Positions 9,739 through 17,187 of a DNA stretch of 64,000 nucleotides are shown in pieces. Positions within the stretch are counted from its first letter, which is position 1. Each line of letters begins with the position of its first letter. The stretch comes from a virus (lineage: Duplodnaviria; Heunggongvirae; Uroviricota; Caudoviricetes; Straboviridae), in IMG/VR virus record IMGVR_UViG_638277085_000001, positions 163,399 through 227,398 of that record; one strand, 5' to 3'. The notes under the pieces are model-generated. The model did not search any database. It was not told the DNA's origin and saw only the letters and a program-made list of their open reading frames with translations. The position numbers were made by a program, and so were the translations under genes.

Positions 9739-9827
9739 TGGCGGAGATACTGGGAATCGAACCCAGAGAACGCTATTAACGTCCGACACCTTAGCAGGGT
9801 GCTGTCATACCTTTAGACCATATCTCC
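9739..9827 (-). tRNA. tRNA-Ser(GCU), type II with a long variable arm; CCA encoded
   Basis: Hand fold: 7-bp acceptor GGAGATA/TATCTCC, T-arm CTGGG TTCGATT CCCAG, anticodon stem GCACC/GGTGT with loop CTGCTAA. Confidence 0.65.
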
Positions 9828-9833
9828 GTAGAT

Positions 9834-10012
9834 CATTTCTTACCACGCTCTGCTTTGCTAATCTCGACAGCAGCGATTTGCGCGTTGGCTTCTTTCTCAG
9901 TGTCATGAGTACCAAGTACTCGACCTTTAGATGAAAGAGCAACCCATTTGTCGCCACGCTTCTCGACTTTCTCAACAAGCTTGTGATATTCATCAAATGT
10001 TTTAAGTTTCAT
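9834..10012 (-). CDS. Small hypothetical protein (59 aa, MKLKTFDEYHKLVEKVEKRGDKWVALSSKGRVLGTHDTEKEANAQIAAVEISKAERGKK). It is absent from the ORF track because it is under 60 aa.
   Basis: ATG preceded by GAGGGA. A clean ORF lies between tRNA-Ser and the next intergenic region. Confidence 0.5.
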
Positions 10013-10267
10013 GTGTCATCCCTCAGTTAGTTTATTGTATTTATAACTGAACGACTTTTAAACAGTGGCATGCTGCTCCCATGCTCAGACACATATTTGC
10101 TCTTAATGCAGGCGTGTGCCACGCGCAGCGCAGATCCCATTCGATAATTTAATGACCAGCGGGACTCTTAGCAGGTCTACACATAGCCTTTCAGCTATAT
10201 CTTCTTTTAAGACCATAGTGTCGTACGGTCTAATCACTCTCTTTCGATTCGCGTTGCTAAGTGAATT

Positions 10268-10344
10268 TGGTGCCCAACCCGAGATTCGAACTCGGATCAT
10301 CTAGTGTTTGAAACTAGCGCCTCTGCCAATTGGACTAGTTGGGC
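10268..10344 (-). tRNA. tRNA with anticodon CAA (Leu-decoding) but a short 5-nt variable loop (type I); A73; CCA encoded
   Basis: Acceptor GCCCAAC/GTTGGGC is perfect. D-arm is GTCC-AATTGGCAG-AGGC. Anticodon stem CTAGT/ACTAG with loop TTCAAAC. T-arm CCGAG TTCGAAT CTCGG. Confidence 0.55.
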
Positions 10345-10460
10345 TTGAATAAGCTGCCGCAACTCTTTAATCCCTAACGCCTGTCAGCTTTCGCTCGGCT
10401 GAGACCGTTTTTCAACGGCGGTAGTCTAGCTTCGTGTAGAACGCGGCTTATGCTAGAGTT

Positions 10461-10537
10461 TGGTACGCACGGGCGGATTCGAACCGCCATCCCTGAGATT
10501 TTAAGCCTCATGCCTCTGCCAATTGGACCACGTGCGC
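10461..10537 (-). tRNA. tRNA with anticodon UAA (Leu-decoding), type I; A73; CCA encoded
   Basis: Acceptor GCGCACG/CGTGCGT (G1.U72). D-arm nearly identical to that of 10268..10344. Anticodon stem TGAGG/TCTCA, loop CTTAAAA. Confidence 0.55.
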
Positions 10538-10539
10538 AG

Positions 10540-10613
10540 TGGAGCCCGAACAGAGAATCGAACTCTGACCGCGGGATTTGCAATCCCTCATACTTCCATT
10601 ATACGATTCGGGC
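10540..10613 (-). tRNA. tRNA-Cys(GCA); CCA encoded
   Basis: Acceptor GCCCGAA/TTCGGGC. Anticodon loop TTGCAAA. T-arm CAGAG TTCGATT CTCTG. Confidence 0.65.
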
Positions 10614-10716
10614 AATTTGTTAGTGCATTGCATGGACTACTGGCGATCTTAATGGGTATCTCAAGCATTCAGAATTCCCATGCGCTACTACAATGCTTTT
10701 TTCGCTAAATGCACTT

Positions 10717-10793
10717 TGGGGTGACAGACGGGGATCGAACCCGCATCTTCCGGAATCACAACCCGGGGGTATTTCCACTTCACCCACTGCCAC
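10717..10793 (-). tRNA. tRNA-His(GUG); discriminator C73; CCA encoded
   Basis: Acceptor GTGGCAG/CTGTCAC. Anticodon stem CCGGG/TCCGG, loop TTGTGAT. Confidence 0.65.
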
Positions 10794-10847
10794 ACCAAAG
10801 TACACTTTGGGATGTTTACGACATCAAACGAATGCGCTCCCTGTGCA

Positions 10848-11087
10848 TTAATCAGTTTTCTTTAAGTAGATACTATCAGGCGATAGCTCTCTCGTAAACA
10901 TATTTTTGAAATAAATTTCGATGTCATCAGAAGTTGTTGAAGACTCAATTTCAAGAGCACGTTCTAAAATCTTACCGCGTTTATAACCAGCGCGCCAACA
11001 GTCAAACATAAGTCTGTCCATGCGTTTCAGTTTTTCAATTTGGTTTTGATTTACGTATTCGTGAGTTTCAAGTAATACAGGCGTCAT
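10848..11087 (-). CDS. Hypothetical protein
   Basis: 79-aa ORF located between tRNA genes. Confidence 0.4.
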   Translation of the reverse strand: MTPVLLETHEYVNQNQIEKLKRMDRLMFDCWRAGYKRGKILERALEIESSTTSDDIEIYFKNMFTRELSPDSIYLKKTD

Positions 11088-11100
11088 AATTTATTTCTCA

Positions 11101-11174
11101 TCATAAAGAATGGTAGTCCCTAGTGGAATCGAGCCACTTCTTTCTCTGTGTAAAAGAGACGTACTGCCATTATA
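11101..11174 (-). tRNA. tRNA-Val(UAC); CCA encoded
   Basis: Acceptor GGTCCCT/AGGGACT. Anticodon stem TCTCT/AGAGA, loop TTTACAC. The T-loop CTCGATT is slightly atypical. Confidence 0.6.
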
Positions 11175-11179
11175 CTAAG

Positions 11180-11253
11180 GGACCAAAATTGGAGCGGGTA
11201 CACGGACTCGAACCGAGACGAACGACTTGGAAGGACGTCATGCTACCATTACA
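11180..11253 (-). tRNA. tRNA-Gly(UCC); CCA encoded
   Basis: Acceptor GCGGGTA/TACCCGC is perfect. Anticodon loop CTTCCAA. Confidence 0.65.
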
Positions 11254-15109: not shown

Positions 15110-15116
15110 ATTAAAC

Positions 15117-15193
15117 TGGTCCGTGACAAGCGATTCGAACGCTTAACTTCTCCGCCCCAAACGGAGTACTCTACCAGATTGAGCTAGTCACGG
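15117..15193 (-). tRNA. tRNA-Pro(UGG), copy 1 (C1-G72); CCA encoded
   Basis: Acceptor CCGTGAC/GTCACGG is perfect. Anticodon stem CTCCG/CGGAG, loop TTTGGGG. Confidence 0.65.
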
Positions 15194-15202
15194 ATTTTAA
15201 AT

Positions 15203-15276
15203 TGGTCGGGACGAAGAGACTCGAACTCTTACCACATGCTCCCAAAGCATGAACGCTACCTTTACGCCACGTCCCG
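15203..15276 (-). tRNA. tRNA-Pro(UGG), copy 2 (C1-G72); CCA encoded
   Basis: Acceptor CGGGACG/CGTCCCG is perfect. Anticodon stem CATGC/GCATG, loop TTTGGGA. Confidence 0.65.
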
Positions 15277-15350
15277 TTTGTTCTTTAACTTTGTTTATCA
15301 TACTCTGCTTTCAAAGTACCTTAAACAAAATTTTTGATTTTCTTTCGCCC

Positions 15351-15376
15351 ATAAAAAAGGACGCTACGTGCGTCCT
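15351..15376 (-). terminator. Rho-independent terminator on the minus strand (ggacgc tacgt gcgtcc after an A-run on the plus strand)
   Basis: 6-bp GC-rich stem, plus a T-run when read on the minus strand. Confidence 0.55.
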
Positions 15377-15644
15377 CAAGTATACTTCTATGTTATACTA
15401 TTGGACTACGTTTGTGGAGACCACTCTTGTTTCGCACACGGATTCGCTAGATACACGAATTCTGAGCGCAGAAAATCGCTGCGTAAAATCATATCAGAAT
15501 GTGTATTCGAATGTGTCATGGAAACTCTCTAAACGTTAAAATAAAAATGTTTTTGTTTGTATAATAGTACTTATAACACCAAATTTGACGATTTGCGGTA
15601 TTTTCGCAGAAAATTGAAAAAAACTTCAACTTTCTGCGATTTTC

Positions 15645-15890
15645 TTATCGACCTAGGTGTTTTCGCTTGTTCATTTCAACGAGGATTTCATCGTTGTAAT
15701 GACGGTTCAGTTCAACATACTTCTTGTGCTGATCTGAAGTCAACTCGTTGGTGTCATTCAGATGTTTCAAGAATCCAAGAGGTTTGCGAAACGACTTGCG
15801 ATACTCGTTCAGACGCTCGTCAGTTAGATTATGCAGTTGTTTCGGAGTCAGTAACGTTTTATTGATGTCAAAACTCATGTTGTACCTCAC
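15645..15890 (-). CDS. Hypothetical protein
   Basis: 81-aa ORF. Confidence 0.4.
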   Translation of the reverse strand: MRYNMSFDINKTLLTPKQLHNLTDERLNEYRKSFRKPLGFLKHLNDTNELTSDQHKKYVELNRHYNDEILVEMNKRKHLGR

Positions 15891-15902
15891 TTATTATAAA
15901 AT

Positions 15903-16018
15903 TGGTAGTCGGGGCTGGATTCGAACCAGCGACCACGTGCTTAACAGGCAATTGAAGGAGTGCTGGAGCGATACTTGTCAGTATCATTCTTCGTGCTCTA
16001 CCACTGAGCTACCCGACT
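15903..16018 (-). ncRNA. Elongated tRNA-like RNA (113 nt + CCA). It has an acceptor stem, D-arm and T-arm, with a 40-50-nt insertion in the anticodon position carrying the hairpin GATAC-TGACAA-GTATC.
   Basis: Acceptor AGTCGGG/CCCGACT is perfect. D-arm GCTC-AGTGGTA-GAGC. T-arm GCTGG TTCGAAT CCAGC. No 7-nt anticodon loop could be placed. Confidence 0.5.
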
Positions 16019-16023
16019 ATGAA

Positions 16024-16543
16024 TTATTTAACTTTGAACTTCAAATTACGCCAGTCAAAGTTTCGTTTGTTCTTTGTGTTGTAGAACGTGCCCCAATCAA
16101 TAGCAATCGGACAGTTCTTACTACCTACACGAGCGATAAAGACATCGTGAGTCTCGCTGTAACGCTCTCTAAGCTCTTTTAAACGCTTATCGTAGTTAGC
16201 GATATACTCTGCACACGCTTTGTTGTAAGCTGCTTTAGAGAAGCGTTCGTCACTCGAAAATACATTACCCAGATAAGGTCGAATAACACGAACTCGTTCT
16301 TTAGACCAACCCATACTAAAGCTGTTTTCAATCTCACCTGAGATTTCACCAGTCTTCTTACATCTAGCAAGAATGACCCAGCAACGTTCACGCCGAAAAT
16401 CTTTTCGTACGTACACGTTAACGTGCTTGTCAATGTACTCTTGATAACGAGCGTTATACTCAGCACGCAGTTTATTGCGCACTTCAGGCGACATTGCAGC
16501 CCGTTCTTCTTTCGAAAACGCTTGTGCGAATTTCAATGGTTTC
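16024..16543 (-). CDS. Hypothetical protein (start at MKPLKF with an AGAGGAA RBS; the ORF track extends it upstream with a GTG)
   Basis: 173-aa ORF. Confidence 0.45.
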
Positions 16544-16800
16544 ATTATAATTTCCTCTTGGCGCCGCTCGTGTGAATCGAACACACGTCAAACACAACAC
16601 CTCGTCCACCCAATTAGAGTTTCGAAGTAAGAGCTAATCAGCATTTCGGAGCAGTCGAGCGTTATTTCTACGAGTGAGCTTTCGACAACTCACACGCACT
16701 TTCTACCCGGTCCCAGTGATTCGGTACCAACGCAGGTTGCGAACCTACGTCTGCACTAATGCTGGGAAAACACTGCGTATTGTACACCAGTTAGCGGCAT

Positions 16801-17031
16801 TTAAAGATAGCTATCAAAGACAGCATCATCAACTTCTTCAATATTGATGTCAGCGTAACACTCATTCGCAATTGCTTGAATTTCATCTATTGAAACTGTA
16901 CCTGCGTACAATACAACAGCGTCGTTCGGAATCACGACATCACACATGTATTTGTTAAACATTGCAGTTCTGAAATCAGAATCAACAGAGTAACCGTGCA
17001 TTGATGTGATAACTAGCAATTTATGTGACAT
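16801..17031 (-). CDS. Hypothetical protein
   Basis: 76-aa ORF. Confidence 0.4.
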   Translation of the reverse strand: MSHKLLVITSMHGYSVDSDFRTAMFNKYMCDVVIPNDAVVLYAGTVSIDEIQAIANECYADINIEEVDDAVFDSYL

Positions 17032-17110
17032 AATGTTTTCCTCGTGTAGTTGATAATGTGTATACTACACGTTGATGAAACGCCTGTCAACAACTTTTTC
17101 AAATTATTTT

Positions 17111-17187
17111 TGGTAGCCCCTCTCGGATTCGAACCGAGAACCTGACGATTATGAGTCGTCTGCTACTACCGTTACAGCTAAGGGGCT
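17111..17187 (-). tRNA. tRNA with anticodon CAU (third CAU species: Met/fMet/Ile2 candidate); CCA encoded
   Basis: Acceptor AGCCCCT/AGGGGCT is perfect. Anticodon stem GACGA/TCGTC, loop CTCATAA. T-arm CTCGG TTCGAAT CCGAG. Confidence 0.65.

What the first reader, a model, noticed from the sequence alone, without database searches (positions are those of the whole stretch)
9739..17187. Complete 20-amino-acid tRNA complement in one roughly 7.5-kb minus-strand island, nearly all with genome-encoded CCA
I could fold about 32 canonical tRNAs by hand. They are Ser x2, Leu x3, Cys, His, Val, Gly, CAU x3, Arg x2, Ala, Thr, Gln, Asp, Asn x2, Trp, Ile, Tyr, Glu, Lys x2, Phe and Pro x2. Together they cover every amino acid. 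This is unusually complete even for T4-like phages. Almost all carry an encoded 3' CCA, yet the phage also encodes a CCA-adding enzyme at 62709..63806.
Basis: seen in the sequence. Interest (0 to 1): 0.6.

Follow-up and report, generated by a model that had tools for sequence, protein, structure and literature searches.

The report
KVP40 phage tRNA gene island
This is the already published tRNA gene cluster of Vibrio phage KVP40, a near-complete decoding set, so the finding itself is ordinary; but five long "pseudo-tRNAs" at its upstream end belong to a widespread family of phage tRNA-like RNAs that sit next to a Ro60-like protein gene.

Summary
The window is 100% identical to Vibrio phage KVP40 (AY283928.2). 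Rfam adds the 29th, an Ala(UGC)-like gene whose acceptor stem needs a bulged U. All 29 encode 3' CCA. The ORF at 62709..63806 (minus strand) is a class II tRNA nucleotidyltransferase.

The count is 29, not about 32, and Ala rests on one non-canonical gene. The island was published in 2003, and the same set is conserved across the genus. An encoded CCA alongside a CCA enzyme is not a paradox if the enzyme repairs 3' ends.

The best reading is a phage-borne decoding set matched to phage codon usage: for 12 of 18 amino acids the top codon is cognate to a phage tRNA.

One result was unexpected. Five 113-126-nt "pseudo-tRNAs" (15903..18443) are not decayed genes. They have a tRNA body in which a conserved hairpin and an ACAGCAA motif replace the anticodon loop, and covariation is strong. 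At least 79 copies occur in 59 viral contigs. Wherever a DUF2828 gene was nearby (31 of 31 loci), the RNA lay on the same strand, at a median distance of 250 nt. KVP40's DUF2828 protein (4885..6321) folds like Ro60. They are probably Y-RNA-like partners of this protein, which is untested.

The parts
9739..9827 (-). tRNA-Ser(GCU), encoded CCA
   Evidence: ARAGORN; Rfam 57.3 bits; CCA
10268..10344 (-). tRNA-Leu(CAA), encoded CCA
10461..10537 (-). tRNA-Leu(UAA), encoded CCA
10540..10613 (-). tRNA-Cys(GCA), encoded CCA
10717..10793 (-). tRNA-His(GUG), encoded CCA
11111..11184 (-). tRNA-Val(UAC), encoded CCA
11190..11263 (-). tRNA-Gly(UCC), encoded CCA
11451..11526 (-). tRNA(CAU), elongator-Met type: G1-C72 paired, C11-G24
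   Evidence: features read from the sequence
12031..12106 (-). tRNA-Arg(UCU), encoded CCA
12183..12257 (-). tRNA-Ala(UGC)-like with G3:U70, A73 and CCA. The acceptor stem pairs only with a bulged U and the T stem has 4 bp. GenBank calls it 'tRNA-Pseudo-1'.
   Evidence: Rfam 44.9 bits; not called by ARAGORN; fold; identical in VS1 and ValKK3, canonical in nt-1 and 6E35.1a
12503..12578 (-). tRNA-Thr(UGU), encoded CCA
12590..12700 (-). Conserved intergenic element with UUUUCAGCAAACAAUUACUAAUA and a T-arm-like hairpin (GGGGUUCGAUUCCC). Nature unknown.
   Evidence: also in nt-1, VS1, ValKK3, VH7D; weak model hit at 12627-12780
12707..12780 (-). tRNA-Gln(UUG), encoded CCA
12800..12875 (-). tRNA-Asp(GUC), encoded CCA
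13098..13173 (-). tRNA-Asn(GUU) copy 1, encoded CCA
   Evidence: (71.1 bits)
13180..13254 (-). tRNA-Asn(GUU) copy 2, encoded CCA; not in the 2003 annotation
   Evidence: (57.7 bits)
13538..13611 (-). tRNA-Trp(CCA), encoded CCA
13618..13691 (-). tRNA-Ile(GAU), encoded CCA
13756..13854 (-). tRNA-Ser(UGA), 99 nt, with a perfect acceptor stem (GGAAGGC/GUCUUCC), an oversized D loop, a long variable arm and CCA. ARAGORN's default 5' end (13841) is probably wrong.
   Evidence: no Rfam hit at gathering score; orthologues called in four relatives
13862..13937 (-). tRNA(CAU), initiator-like: U1xU72 mismatch and A11:U24, but no run of three G-C pairs in the anticodon stem
   Evidence: (37.6 bits); features read from the sequence; relatives are reported to carry both fMet and Met tRNAs
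14040..14125 (-). tRNA-Tyr(GUA), class II with a long variable arm, CCA; GenBank 'tRNA-Pseudo-2'
   Evidence: (scored by the tRNA-Sec model, 49.2 bits)
14132..14205 (-). tRNA-Glu(UUC), encoded CCA
14269..14345 (-). tRNA-Lys(UUU) copy 1, encoded CCA
14357..14431 (-). tRNA-Lys(UUU) copy 2, encoded CCA
14438..14512 (-). tRNA-Phe(GAA), encoded CCA
14514..14591 (-). tRNA-Leu(UAG), encoded CCA
15034..15109 (-). tRNA-Arg(ACG), encoded CCA
15117..15193 (-). tRNA-Pro(UGG) copy 1, encoded CCA
15203..15276 (-). tRNA-Pro(UGG) copy 2, encoded CCA
17111..17187 (-). tRNA(CAU), annotated tRNA-Ile-2 (lysidine type) in GenBank, encoded CCA
   Evidence: identity as Ile2 not tested here (uninformative)
15903..16018 (-). 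tRNA-like RNA 1 (GenBank 'tRNA-Pseudo-3'). It has a tRNA acceptor, D and T arms and CCA. The anticodon loop is replaced by a hairpin (GAUAC-UGACAA-GUAUC) and a CCAGCA motif.
   Evidence: Rfam tRNA 49.8 bits with a 54-nt insert; family model R1 99.6 bits
17569..17692 (-). tRNA-like RNA 2 ('tRNA-Pseudo-4'), CCA end
   Evidence: R1 89.5 bits; orthologues with compensatory hairpin changes
17700..17815 (-). tRNA-like RNA 3 ('tRNA-Pseudo-5'), no encoded CCA
   Evidence: R1 80.0 bits
17931..18056 (-). tRNA-like RNA 4 (not annotated). The acceptor stem extends into the flanks to about 13 bp. No CCA.
   Evidence: (z -4.1); R1 107.2 bits
18321..18443 (-). tRNA-like RNA 5 (not annotated). The acceptor stem extends to about 16 bp. 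ACCA lies within the stem.
   Evidence: R1 93.5 bits
16565..16797 (-). Conserved structured RNA of about 230 nt with an acceptor-like stem (GCCGCU/AGCGGC) followed by G and CCA, a T arm and an inner T-arm-like hairpin. Nature unknown.
   Evidence: sequence; compensatory changes in nt-1 and 6E35.1a; weak beta_tmRNA hit (14.8 bits); not called tmRNA by ARAGORN
18817..18844 (-). sigma-70-like promoter (TTGACT-16-TAGAAT) upstream of the tRNA-like RNAs
   Evidence: conserved block in relatives
18725..18752 (-). sigma-70-like promoter (TTGACT-16-TAAGAT)
17062..17090 (-). sigma-70-like promoter (TTGACA-17-TAGTAT) just downstream of the CAU tRNA at 17111
14627..14738 (-). two sigma-70-like promoters (TTTACA-17-TACAAT) upstream of tRNA-Leu(UAG)
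15357..15377 (-). intrinsic-terminator-like hairpin inside the island
9444..9466 (-). intrinsic-terminator-like hairpin after the last tRNA; the likely 3' end of the island
62709..63806 (-). class II tRNA nucleotidyltransferase (CCA-adding type), 365 aa
   Evidence: Pfam PF01743 and PF12627; phrog_2244 at 1.5e-102; NCBIfam CCA addition/repair family, below cut-off
4885..6321 (-). Ro60-like protein: DUF2828 + DUF7788, a helical-repeat N-terminal part and a vWA domain with the MIDAS motif DVSGS; 478 aa
   Evidence: Pfam; phrog_850 'RNA-binding protein'; AF2 model; Foldseek top four hits are Ro60/Rsr
4310..4840 (-). RNaseH_like (PF04308) protein next to the Ro60-like gene; the same pairing recurs in other viral contigs
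7408..7764 (-). cREC_REC (cyclic-phosphate-processing receiver) domain protein
   Evidence: Pfam PF20274; family described in PMC7824862
19108..19563 (-). gp57B, an Acb1-type anti-CBASS phosphodiesterase. It is a flank marker shared with the T4 tRNA region and is not part of the tRNA system.
   Evidence: Pfam PF23474 at 1.7e-46; T4 synteny

Best explanation
The region is the tRNA gene island of Vibrio phage KVP40. It holds 29 tRNA genes on the minus strand: 28 canonical and one Ala(UGC) gene with an irregular acceptor stem. Small ORFs and a few structured RNAs lie between them. Promoter-like and terminator-like sites suggest several units transcribed from sigma-70-type (early) promoters. Host enzymes would cut the precursors (RNase P at the 5' end, exonuclease trimming back to the encoded CCA at the 3' end). 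Because every gene encodes CCA, maturation needs no CCA addition. The phage nucleotidyltransferase at 62709-63806 would then repair damaged 3' ends and could complete the tRNA-like RNAs that lack CCA. With U34 or I34 wobble the anticodons cover every codon family; only CGG is doubtful. They match the codons the phage itself prefers. The island therefore gives the phage its own decoding set. This set would keep phage protein synthesis going late in infection and in many Vibrio hosts, whatever happens to the host tRNA pool. What is shown: the genes, anticodons, CCA ends, conservation across the genus, and the match to phage codon usage. What is inferred: the transcription units, processing, aminoacylation, and the benefit to the phage. 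Five further genes at and near the upstream end (15903-18443) are tRNA-like non-coding RNAs, not tRNAs. They probably work with the Ro60-like protein encoded at 4885-6321; this is inferred.
For: Identity: the window is 100% identical to KVP40 over 8.8 kb, and the GenBank record has 25 tRNAs and 5 'pseudo' tRNAs in the same places. Genes: ARAGORN finds 28, the Rfam tRNA model adds the Ala-like gene, and 29 of 29 have encoded CCA. Conservation: nt-1, VS1, ValKK3 and 6E35.1a carry 26-28 tRNAs in the same order. [quoted passage not shown] A preprint reports the same figure, 12 of 18, for the genus, and says its 26 core tRNAs could decode all 61 codons. Transcription signals: minus-strand promoter-like sites at 18844, 18752, 17090, 14738 and 14655, and terminator-like hairpins at 15377 and 9466. 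Enzyme: Pfam, PHROG and NCBIfam all place the 62709-63806 ORF among tRNA nucleotidyltransferases. Context in the literature: phage tRNAs are thought to replace host tRNAs that defence nucleases cleave (PMC7824862).
Against: There are no expression, processing or charging data here. Nolan et al. 2006 (PMC1524935) report that Miller et al. 2003 found little correlation between KVP40 tRNAs and phage-versus-host codon bias, and that the role of the tRNAs 'remains unclear'. For six amino acids (Cys, Asp, Gly, Ile, Thr, Val) the top phage codon is not the Watson-Crick cognate. The Ala gene may not work in KVP40. In a Felix-O1-like phage the tRNA genes were mostly dispensable on laboratory hosts (PMC11482910), so any benefit is conditional. 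The promoter scan gives only 44 sites against 31.7 expected by chance.
Confidence: 0.85

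Rival explanations
1. Codon-bias compensation only: the phage carries just those tRNAs that read codons common in phage genes but rare in the host.
For: This is the classical view for T4 (stated in PMC1524935). Phage tRNAs match the phage's preferred codons for 12 of 18 amino acids.
Against: The set covers all 20 amino acids rather than a selected few. It includes Trp, Met and an initiator-like tRNA, where no synonymous choice exists. The published KVP40 analysis found little correlation with host-versus-phage bias. The host genome was not compared here.
Confidence: 0.25
2. Counter-defence: the tRNAs mainly replace host tRNAs that anticodon nucleases and similar defences cut, and the CCA enzyme and neighbouring RNA-end enzymes repair the damage.
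For: The same neighbourhood encodes a Ro60-like protein, a cREC cyclic-phosphate-processing domain and an RNaseH-like protein. In Listeria phage P100 the DUF2828 gene lies between the tRNA array and RtcB, RNA ligase and phosphoesterase genes. The jumbo-phage survey argues for this role (PMC7824862).
Against: No tRNA-cleaving defence of a KVP40 host was identified here, and no anticodon-loop differences from host tRNAs were examined. This reading is compatible with the main explanation rather than exclusive of it.
Confidence: 0.4
3. The five long tRNA-shaped genes (15903-18443) are Y-RNA-like partners of the phage Ro60-like protein. The tRNA body gives stability and processing. The hairpin and ACAGCAA module that replaces the anticodon loop binds the protein, forming an RNP that acts on RNA or against a host defence.
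For: Covariation on a structure-blind MAFFT alignment of 37 members: 22 of 23 pairs have compensatory changes, and 97.5% of cells are paired against 63% in shuffles. The family model separates members (64-113 bits) from ordinary tRNAs (49 bits or less). There are 79 strong copies in 59 of 94 viral loci. In all 31 loci that hold a DUF2828 homologue, the nearest copy is on the same strand, at a median gap of 250 nt, and 28 of 31 are within 4 kb. The model of the KVP40 DUF2828 protein matches Ro60/Rsr over its full length as the top four PDB hits (E 5e-7 to 2e-5, TM about 0.5). Bacterial Ro60 binds tRNA-like Y RNAs encoded within 4 kb on the same strand (PMC4201824). A Felix-O1-like phage has a tRNA-like element in the YrlA order next to its DUF2828 gene. 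The ACAGCAA motif recurs beside DUF2828 genes in P100 and a Bacillus phage. A Ro60-like Bas63 protein upstream of a tRNA array counters the ppl defence, and its authors guessed that some of the 'tRNAs' are Y RNAs.
Against: No binding data exist. In KVP40 the RNAs lie 9.6-13.5 kb from the Ro60-like gene. The loci were chosen with a motif of the RNA itself, and both features tend to sit near tRNA arrays, so part of the linkage could be indirect. The Rfam YrlA model does not match (29.8 bits against a gathering score of 69). P100 and Skywalker have DUF2828 but no detectable family member. The structural similarity to Ro60 is only moderate (TM about 0.5, rmsd 8-9 A).
Confidence: 0.5
4. The long genes are intron-containing tRNAs (some annotations call them Asn, Phe or Cys) that are spliced to working tRNAs.
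For: The Rfam tRNA model aligns them end to end with one 45-54-nt insert in the anticodon loop. ARAGORN in intron mode and some GenBank records assign anticodons.
Against: The assigned anticodons differ between tools and between orthologues (Ile, Tyr, Val, SeC, Trp, Pro, Pyl, Leu). Most members have no U33 or canonical 7-nt loop after any single excision. The 'intron' carries the most conserved bases of the whole RNA: CUGNNAAG and C-x-GCA are invariant or nearly so in 37 distant members. No known ribozyme or intron family matches. The insert is far too short for a group I intron (general knowledge).
Confidence: 0.04
5. The long genes are decayed tRNA pseudogenes, as annotated in 2003.
For: GenBank labels three of them 'tRNA-Pseudo'.
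Against: All helices are intact and carry compensatory changes. The inserts are conserved across unrelated viral contigs, and five paralogues are kept in KVP40 and its relatives.
Confidence: 0.03

Closest known systems
tRNA cluster of Schizotequatrovirus phages (KVP40 as published in 2003; phi-pp2; nt-1; ValKK3; the 6E35.1a group)
   Same: It is the same object. The window is 100% identical to KVP40. The relatives carry the same 26-28 tRNAs in the same order. The literature describes about 30 tRNAs and a core set able to read all sense codons.
   Different: Nothing differs for the tRNAs themselves. This analysis adds three canonical genes missing from the 2003 annotation (the second Asn, Ser(UGA) and a second CAU tRNA). 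It restores Tyr from 'pseudo' and redraws Ser(UGA).
Phage T4 tRNA region with the stable RNAs rnaC and rnaD (species 1 and 2)
   Same: Both are minus-strand tRNA clusters downstream of gene 57B, and both carry extra small stable RNAs of about 120-140 nt. T4 rnaC has a T arm. The roles of rnaC and rnaD are still unknown (PMC3014915).
   Different: T4 has 8 tRNAs, several without encoded CCA (for example tRNA-Ile). The KVP40 family model hits T4 rnaC only weakly (18.6 bits, E 0.038), so homology is not shown. No Ro60-like gene lies in the 6-kb T4 region that was examined.
Bacterial Ro60 (Rsr) with YrlA-type Y RNAs (Rfam RF02553)
   Same: In both, a Ro60-fold protein is encoded beside small RNAs on the same strand that mimic tRNA with D and T arms. 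Some YrlA RNAs are cut by RNase P and receive CCA.
   Different: YrlA has a closed 'acceptor' hairpin, and its 5' and 3' ends form the Ro-binding stem on the anticodon side. The KVP40 family has the normal tRNA topology: an open acceptor end, mostly with CCA, and a closed module in place of the anticodon loop. It is thus a circular permutation of the YrlA design. The Rfam YrlA model does not reach its threshold. The protein is DUF2828/DUF7788 and is not recognised as TROVE by sequence.
Bas63 (Felix-O1-like) gp130, a Ro60-like protein that counters the ppl defence
   Same: It is a Ro60-like protein encoded directly upstream of a phage tRNA array, and its authors suggested that some of the 'tRNAs' may be Y RNAs. 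The Felix-O1-like phage KhF3 has a DUF2828 homologue in that position.
   Different: That gp130 is a DUF2828 homologue is inferred from KhF3 and was not tested on Bas63 itself. No RNA partner was identified in that work. The KhF3 element has the permuted (YrlA-like) order.

Membership tests
Canonical tRNA (Rfam RF00005 / ARAGORN cloverleaf) | 7-bp acceptor stem, D arm, 5-bp anticodon stem with a 7-nt loop, T arm with the TTCRANT loop | tested here: met
   28 genes pass ARAGORN. 27 of these and the Ala-like gene pass the Rfam gathering score (Tyr through the tRNA-Sec model). Ser(UGA) passes ARAGORN only.
Canonical tRNA: the Ala(UGC)-like gene at 12183-12257 | Continuous 7-bp acceptor stem | tested here: not met
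   Pairs 5-68, 6-67 and 7-66 fail unless U68 is bulged and the T stem is cut to 4 bp. ARAGORN rejects it in KVP40, VS1 and ValKK3 but accepts the orthologues in nt-1 and 6E35.1a.
tRNA-Ala identity | G3:U70 wobble pair and A73 | tested here: met
   G3 and U70 can pair, and A73 is followed by CCA. The sequence is identical in three phages that differ elsewhere. Charging by AlaRS was not tested.
Bacterial initiator tRNA (fMet) | 1:72 mismatch, A11:U24, three consecutive G-C pairs in the anticodon stem | tested here: inconclusive
   The gene at 13862-13937 has U1xU72 and A11:U24, but its anticodon stem (CUAGU/GCUAG) has only one G-C pair (sequence).
tRNA-Ile2 (lysidine-modified CAU) | CAU anticodon with TilS determinants; groups with other phage Ile(CAU) tRNAs | tested here: inconclusive
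   GenBank annotates 17111-17187 as tRNA-Ile-2. Identity to T4 tRNA-Ile (51 of 74) does not set it apart from the other CAU tRNAs (50 and 45 of 74).
Class II CCA-adding tRNA nucleotidyltransferase | PolyA_pol head domain plus neck/RNA-binding domain; CCA-specific rather than poly(A) or A-adding activity | tested here: inconclusive
   Both domains are present and phrog_2244 matches at 1.5e-102. The best NCBIfam hit is the CCA addition/repair family, at 233.7 bits against a cut-off of 451, and pcnB scores far lower. Nucleotide specificity cannot be read from these searches.
Ro60 / TROVE protein | Ring of helical repeats followed by a vWA domain with a MIDAS motif | tested here: met
   AF2 model with pLDDT 77 and pTM 0.74. 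The Foldseek top four PDB hits are Rsr 2nvo and Ro60 1yvr, 1yvp and 2i91, aligned over 516-561 columns, E 5e-7 to 2e-5. The DVSGS motif is at residues 275-279.
Ro60 / TROVE protein | Sequence membership in the TROVE family | tested here: not met
   Pfam gives DUF2828 + DUF7788 only. Profile against PDB gives Ro60 at E 0.18-0.31, which is not significant.
Ro60 / TROVE protein | Binds a Y RNA | not testable with these tools
   Only genomic linkage is available.
YrlA Y RNA (Rfam RF02553) | Match to the covariance model; 5' and 3' ends forming the Ro-binding stem; closed acceptor hairpin | tested here: not met
   The best hit is 29.8 bits against a gathering score of 69, and it spans two adjacent genes. 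The topology is the reverse: an open acceptor end.
Intron-containing tRNA | Removing one insert restores a 7-nt anticodon loop with U33 and one consistent anticodon | tested here: not met
   Anticodon calls are inconsistent between tools and orthologues. The insert holds the family's invariant bases.
tmRNA | tRNA-Ala-like domain (G3:U70), a tag reading frame, detection by ARAGORN or Rfam | tested here: not met
   ARAGORN reports no tmRNA. The tRNA-like RNAs lack G3:U70, and short frames starting at GCA are not conserved (sequences). The 230-nt RNA has only a 14.8-bit beta_tmRNA hit and no conserved frame.

The most novel reading that the evidence does not exclude
The 'pseudo-tRNAs' of KVP40 are members of a large family of phage tRNA-like RNAs that is not in Rfam 15 and that I could not find described. 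Each has a normal tRNA acceptor, D and T frame, usually with CCA. The anticodon loop is replaced by a GNNA-capped hairpin (C-U-G-N-N-A-A-G), an invariant ACAGCAA-type strand and a second hairpin. In this reading they are the RNA partners of a Ro60-like protein (DUF2828/DUF7788) that is common in tRNA-rich phages. That would make them a circularly permuted counterpart of bacterial YrlA Y RNAs. It would also define a phage Ro-type RNP linked to tRNA arrays, perhaps acting in RNA repair or quality control or against a host defence, as reported for Bas63 gp130 and the ppl system.
Probability: 0.5. Interest if true: 0.7.

Novelty: already known. Interest (0 to 1): 0.3.

Why it matters
The tRNA island itself adds nothing new. 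It is a textbook example of a large phage carrying its own near-complete decoding set, and it was published more than twenty years ago.

What could matter is the by-product. Genes that annotation pipelines have labelled 'pseudo', 'undetermined' or 'intron-containing' tRNAs in many phage genomes appear to be one conserved RNA family tied to a Ro60-like protein. If that link holds, three things follow. It would give a function to a very common phage protein family of unknown role; this search alone found more than 7,800 relatives. It would extend Ro/Y-RNA biology to T4-like, Felix-O1-like and other phages. It would also offer a testable lead on why such RNAs sit in phage tRNA clusters, a question open since the T4 species 1 and 2 RNAs were found.

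Tried and rejected
1. tmRNA idea. Several tRNA-like RNAs have a short frame starting at the conserved GCA (for example A-N-L-N-N-stop). I rejected it because there is no G3:U70, the frames are not conserved among members, and ARAGORN calls no tmRNA.
2. Known small ribozymes or introns in the insert. An Rfam E-value search of 15300-18500 found only the tRNA model and chance hits.
3. Homology to T4 rnaC and rnaD. T4 rnaD has a CUGAGUAAG hairpin and an ACAGCAG stretch, and rnaC has a T arm. The family model, however, gives only 18.6 bits on rnaC, so this is left open and not claimed.
4. gp57B as an RNA ligase tied to the tRNAs. It is an Acb1 anti-CBASS phosphodiesterase and unrelated to the tRNAs.
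5. Finding relatives through gp57B in IMG/VR. Only one locus came back.
6. A Fisher test of model-positive against model-negative loci for DUF2828. It gave no enrichment. The control was invalid, because the 'negative' loci hold divergent long members.
7. Sequence-only detection of Ro60. phmmer and a profile against PDB were not significant. A fold comparison was needed.
8. Identity to T4 tRNA-Ile as a way to classify the CAU tRNAs. It was uninformative.
9. The original KVP40 paper (PMC180978) is not held in the library. Its content is cited only through later papers.
10. A helix for the 'anticodon stem' and for the second hairpin of the tRNA-like family could be seen in single sequences. The MAFFT alignment was not good enough to test it by covariation.

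Full report
**1. What the window is.** A megablast of window 9500-18300 against GenBank phages gives a 100% match over all 8801 bases to Vibrio phage KVP40 (AY283928.2 / NC_005083.2). Window position equals record position minus 163398. Close relatives include phi-pp2, V07, PVA8, nt-1, VS1, ValKK3 and VH7D. The GenBank record annotates 25 tRNAs and five 'tRNA-Pseudo' features in this stretch.

**2. Check of the observation.**
- ARAGORN finds 28 tRNA genes, all on the minus strand, between 9739 and 17187.
- The Rfam tRNA model confirms 27 of them at gathering score.
- Every one of the 29 genes is followed by an encoded CCA.
- Three canonical genes are missing from the 2003 annotation: the second Asn, Ser(UGA) and the CAU tRNA at 13862. 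Tyr is labelled 'pseudo' there although it is a normal class II tRNA.
- Ser(UGA) is better drawn as 13756-13854. That gives a perfect acceptor stem (GGAAGGC/GUCUUCC) and an oversized D loop.
- The Ala(UGC) gene keeps G3:U70, A73 and CCA. Its acceptor stem closes only if U68 is bulged and the T stem is cut to four pairs.
- The identical Ala sequence occurs in VS1 and ValKK3, while nt-1 and 6E35.1a have a canonical version at the same place.
- So 19 amino acids are covered by canonical genes and Ala by an irregular but conserved one.

**3. The CAU tRNAs and the enzyme.**
- 11451-11526 looks like an elongator: G1-C72 is paired and position 11:24 is C-G.
- 13862-13937 has a U1xU72 mismatch and A11:U24. 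These are initiator features, but it lacks the three G-C pairs in the anticodon stem.
- 17111-17187 is annotated tRNA-Ile-2. I could not test the lysidine assignment.
- The ORF at 62709-63806 is on the minus strand. It has the PolyA_pol head and RNA-binding domains and matches PHROG 'tRNA nucleotidyltransferase' at 1.5e-102.
- Its best NCBIfam match is the CCA addition/repair family, below the curated cut-off.
- Encoded CCA together with such an enzyme is the normal arrangement in E. coli (general knowledge) and points to 3'-end repair.

**4. What the island does.**
- The gene order and content are conserved across the genus: 26-28 genes in four relatives.
- In 45 long ORFs of the window (48.7 kb), the most used codon is the Watson-Crick cognate of a phage tRNA for 12 of 18 amino acids. 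[quoted passage not shown]
- Minus-strand sigma-70-like promoters lie at 18844, 18752, 17090, 14738 and 14655. Terminator-like hairpins lie at 15377 and 9466. This suggests several early transcription units, although the scan is barely above chance.
- The best-supported reading is a phage-borne decoding set tuned to phage codons, which keeps translation independent of the host tRNA pool.
- A pure 'rare host codon' model fits poorly. The set is complete rather than selective, and the original analysis found little correlation with host bias.
- A counter-defence role is compatible with the main reading and is favoured in the comparative literature.
- None of this is new.

**5. The long 'pseudo-tRNAs'.**
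- The Rfam tRNA model also hits three genes of 113-121 nt, each with a 45-54-nt insert in the anticodon loop: 15906-16018, 17572-17692 and 17703-17815.
- Reading the sequence and running ARAGORN in intron mode revealed two more, at 17931-18056 and 18321-18443.
- All five share a hairpin capped by C-U-G-N-N-A-A-G, that is a GNNA tetraloop closed by U-A and C-G. An (A)CAGCA(A) strand follows exactly 10 nt later.
- Orthologues in ValKK3, 6E35.1a, 1.081.O and D479 keep the loop while the stem covaries.
- A pattern built from these features (CTGANAAG-N10-GCA-N20-50-GGTTCRANTCC) found 94 stretches in IMG/VR.
- Many of the hits are 112-130-nt genes with the same build in unrelated viral contigs.

**6. 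Evidence that this is an RNA family.**
- A structure-blind MAFFT alignment of 37 diverse members gives an RNAalifold consensus of acceptor, D, hairpin and T helices.
- 22 of its 23 pairs have compensatory changes.
- 97.5% of cells are paired against 63% in shuffles and 37-49% with slid partners. The covariation score is 0.905 against 0.216.
- A covariance model built from this alignment scores family members at 64-113 bits and ordinary tRNAs at 49 bits or less.
- The model finds exactly five members in the window and two in Cronobacter phage LPCS28. It finds 79 copies in 59 of the 94 viral loci.
- Most members end in CCA (38 of 77 unique candidate sequences from the motif scan).
- The intron reading fails. 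Anticodon calls are inconsistent, and the 'intron' holds the invariant bases.
- The pseudogene reading fails on covariation.
- No Rfam 15 family other than tRNA matches.

**7. The protein link.**
- I clustered the ORFs of the 94 loci. One family was present in 31 loci, in about 20 independent groups.
- It is DUF2828. KVP40 encodes a strong homologue at 4885-6321 on the minus strand (hmmsearch 5e-148). It has Pfam DUF2828 + DUF7788 and matches phrog_850 'RNA-binding protein'.
- Sequence searches against PDB were not significant.
- An AlphaFold model (pLDDT 77, pTM 0.74) matches Ro60 proteins over its full length as the four best PDB hits: D. radiodurans Rsr 2nvo and Xenopus Ro60 1yvr, 1yvp and 2i91. 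E-values run from 5e-7 to 2e-5, TM is about 0.5, and 516-561 columns are aligned.
- In all 31 viral loci with a DUF2828 gene, the nearest tRNA-like RNA is on the same strand. The median gap is 250 nt, 21 are within 1 kb and 28 within 4 kb.
- This is the signature reported for bacterial Ro60 and its tRNA-like YrlA RNAs.
- DUF2828 genes also abut the tRNA arrays of Listeria phage P100, Felix-O1-like KhF3, Bacillus phage Skywalker and LPCS28.
- KhF3 has a tRNA-like element in the YrlA order: T arm, closed acceptor hairpin, D arm.
- ACAGCAA motifs recur in the gaps beside the DUF2828 genes of P100 (three copies), Skywalker and KhF3.
- A 2024 preprint found that the Ro60-like gp130 of the Felix-O1-like phage Bas63 counters the ppl defence. 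Its authors guessed that some neighbouring 'tRNAs' might be Y RNAs.
- A Thermus phage Ro60 with Y-like RNAs has been solved.

**8. Caveats on the link.**
- The viral loci were picked with a motif of the RNA itself, and both features favour tRNA arrays. Part of the association could therefore be indirect.
- My attempted internal control was invalid.
- In KVP40 the RNAs are 9.6-13.5 kb from the gene.
- P100 and Skywalker have the protein but no detectable family member.
- No binding has been shown.
- I put the Y-RNA-partner reading at about 0.5.

**9. Verdict.** The finding as written is correct in substance and already known. It deserves a low score on its own. The unannotated or mis-annotated tRNA-like RNAs and their tie to a Ro60-like protein are the part worth following up.

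Noticed in passing
window 15903-16018, 17569-17692, 17700-17815, 17931-18056, 18321-18443 (all minus): Five tRNA-like RNAs of 113-126 nt. Three are annotated 'tRNA-Pseudo' and two are unannotated. They belong to a widespread phage RNA family: a tRNA frame with the anticodon loop replaced by a CUGNNAAG hairpin and an ACAGCAA strand. The family is not in Rfam 15.
   Followed up: yes
window 4885-6321 (-): A DUF2828/DUF7788 protein whose predicted fold matches Ro60/Rsr. Homologues lie beside the tRNA-like RNAs (same strand, median 250 nt) in 31 of 31 viral loci, and beside tRNA arrays in P100, Felix-O1-like, Bacillus and Cronobacter phages.
   Followed up: yes
window 4310-4840 (-) and 7408-7764 (-): An RNaseH_like (PF04308) gene lies directly downstream of the Ro60-like gene, and the same family turned up in 9 of the viral loci. 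A cREC_REC (cyclic-phosphate-processing receiver) domain gene lies upstream. Together they suggest an RNA-end-processing neighbourhood.
   Followed up: partly
window ~16565-16797 (-): A conserved structured RNA of about 230 nt between two small ORFs. It has an acceptor-like stem (GCCGCU/AGCGGC) followed by G and CCA, a T arm and an inner T-arm-like hairpin. Compensatory changes occur in nt-1 and 6E35.1a. It is not called a tmRNA and has no conserved reading frame.
   Followed up: partly
window ~12590-12700 (-): An intergenic element between tRNA-Gln and tRNA-Thr with UUUUCAGCAAACAAUUACUAAUA and a T-arm-like hairpin. It is conserved in nt-1, VS1, ValKK3 and VH7D. Its CAGCAA...UUACUA stretch resembles the repeats beside the P100 DUF2828 gene.
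   Followed up: partly
L106 (Listeria phage P100) 6363, 6451, 6520; L109 (Bacillus phage Skywalker) 6441; L107 (KhF3) 9309, 9401: ACAGCAA motifs recur in the roughly 600-nt non-coding gaps next to DUF2828 genes of unrelated phages. P100 has three copies of CUAACAGCAAUUACUA-like repeats spaced 70-90 nt apart.
   Followed up: partly
L107 (Enterobacteria phage KhF3) ~9380-9500: An unannotated tRNA-like element inside the tRNA array, in permuted order like bacterial YrlA Y RNAs: ACAGCAA, T arm, closed acceptor hairpin, D arm.
   Followed up: partly
L106 (Listeria phage P100) 5159-5710: A ROOL RNA match (86 bits, E 7e-16, just under the gathering score of 99.1) inside the P100 tRNA array, about 1 kb upstream of the DUF2828 gene.
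   Followed up: no
window 19108-19563 (-): gp57B, annotated 'RNA ligase' in T4, matches the Acb1 anti-CBASS phosphodiesterase family (1.7e-46). It keeps its position upstream of the tRNA region in T4 and KVP40.
   Followed up: partly
window, trailers of the tRNA genes: Ten of the 29 tRNAs are followed by the same four bases after CCA (CCA-AATT). This may be a shared 3'-processing or spacing signal.
   Followed up: no
window 12183-12257 (-): The irregular Ala(UGC) gene is identical in KVP40, VS1 and ValKK3, although these genomes differ by 10-20% elsewhere in the island. This suggests selection on an unusual acceptor stem rather than decay.
   Followed up: partly
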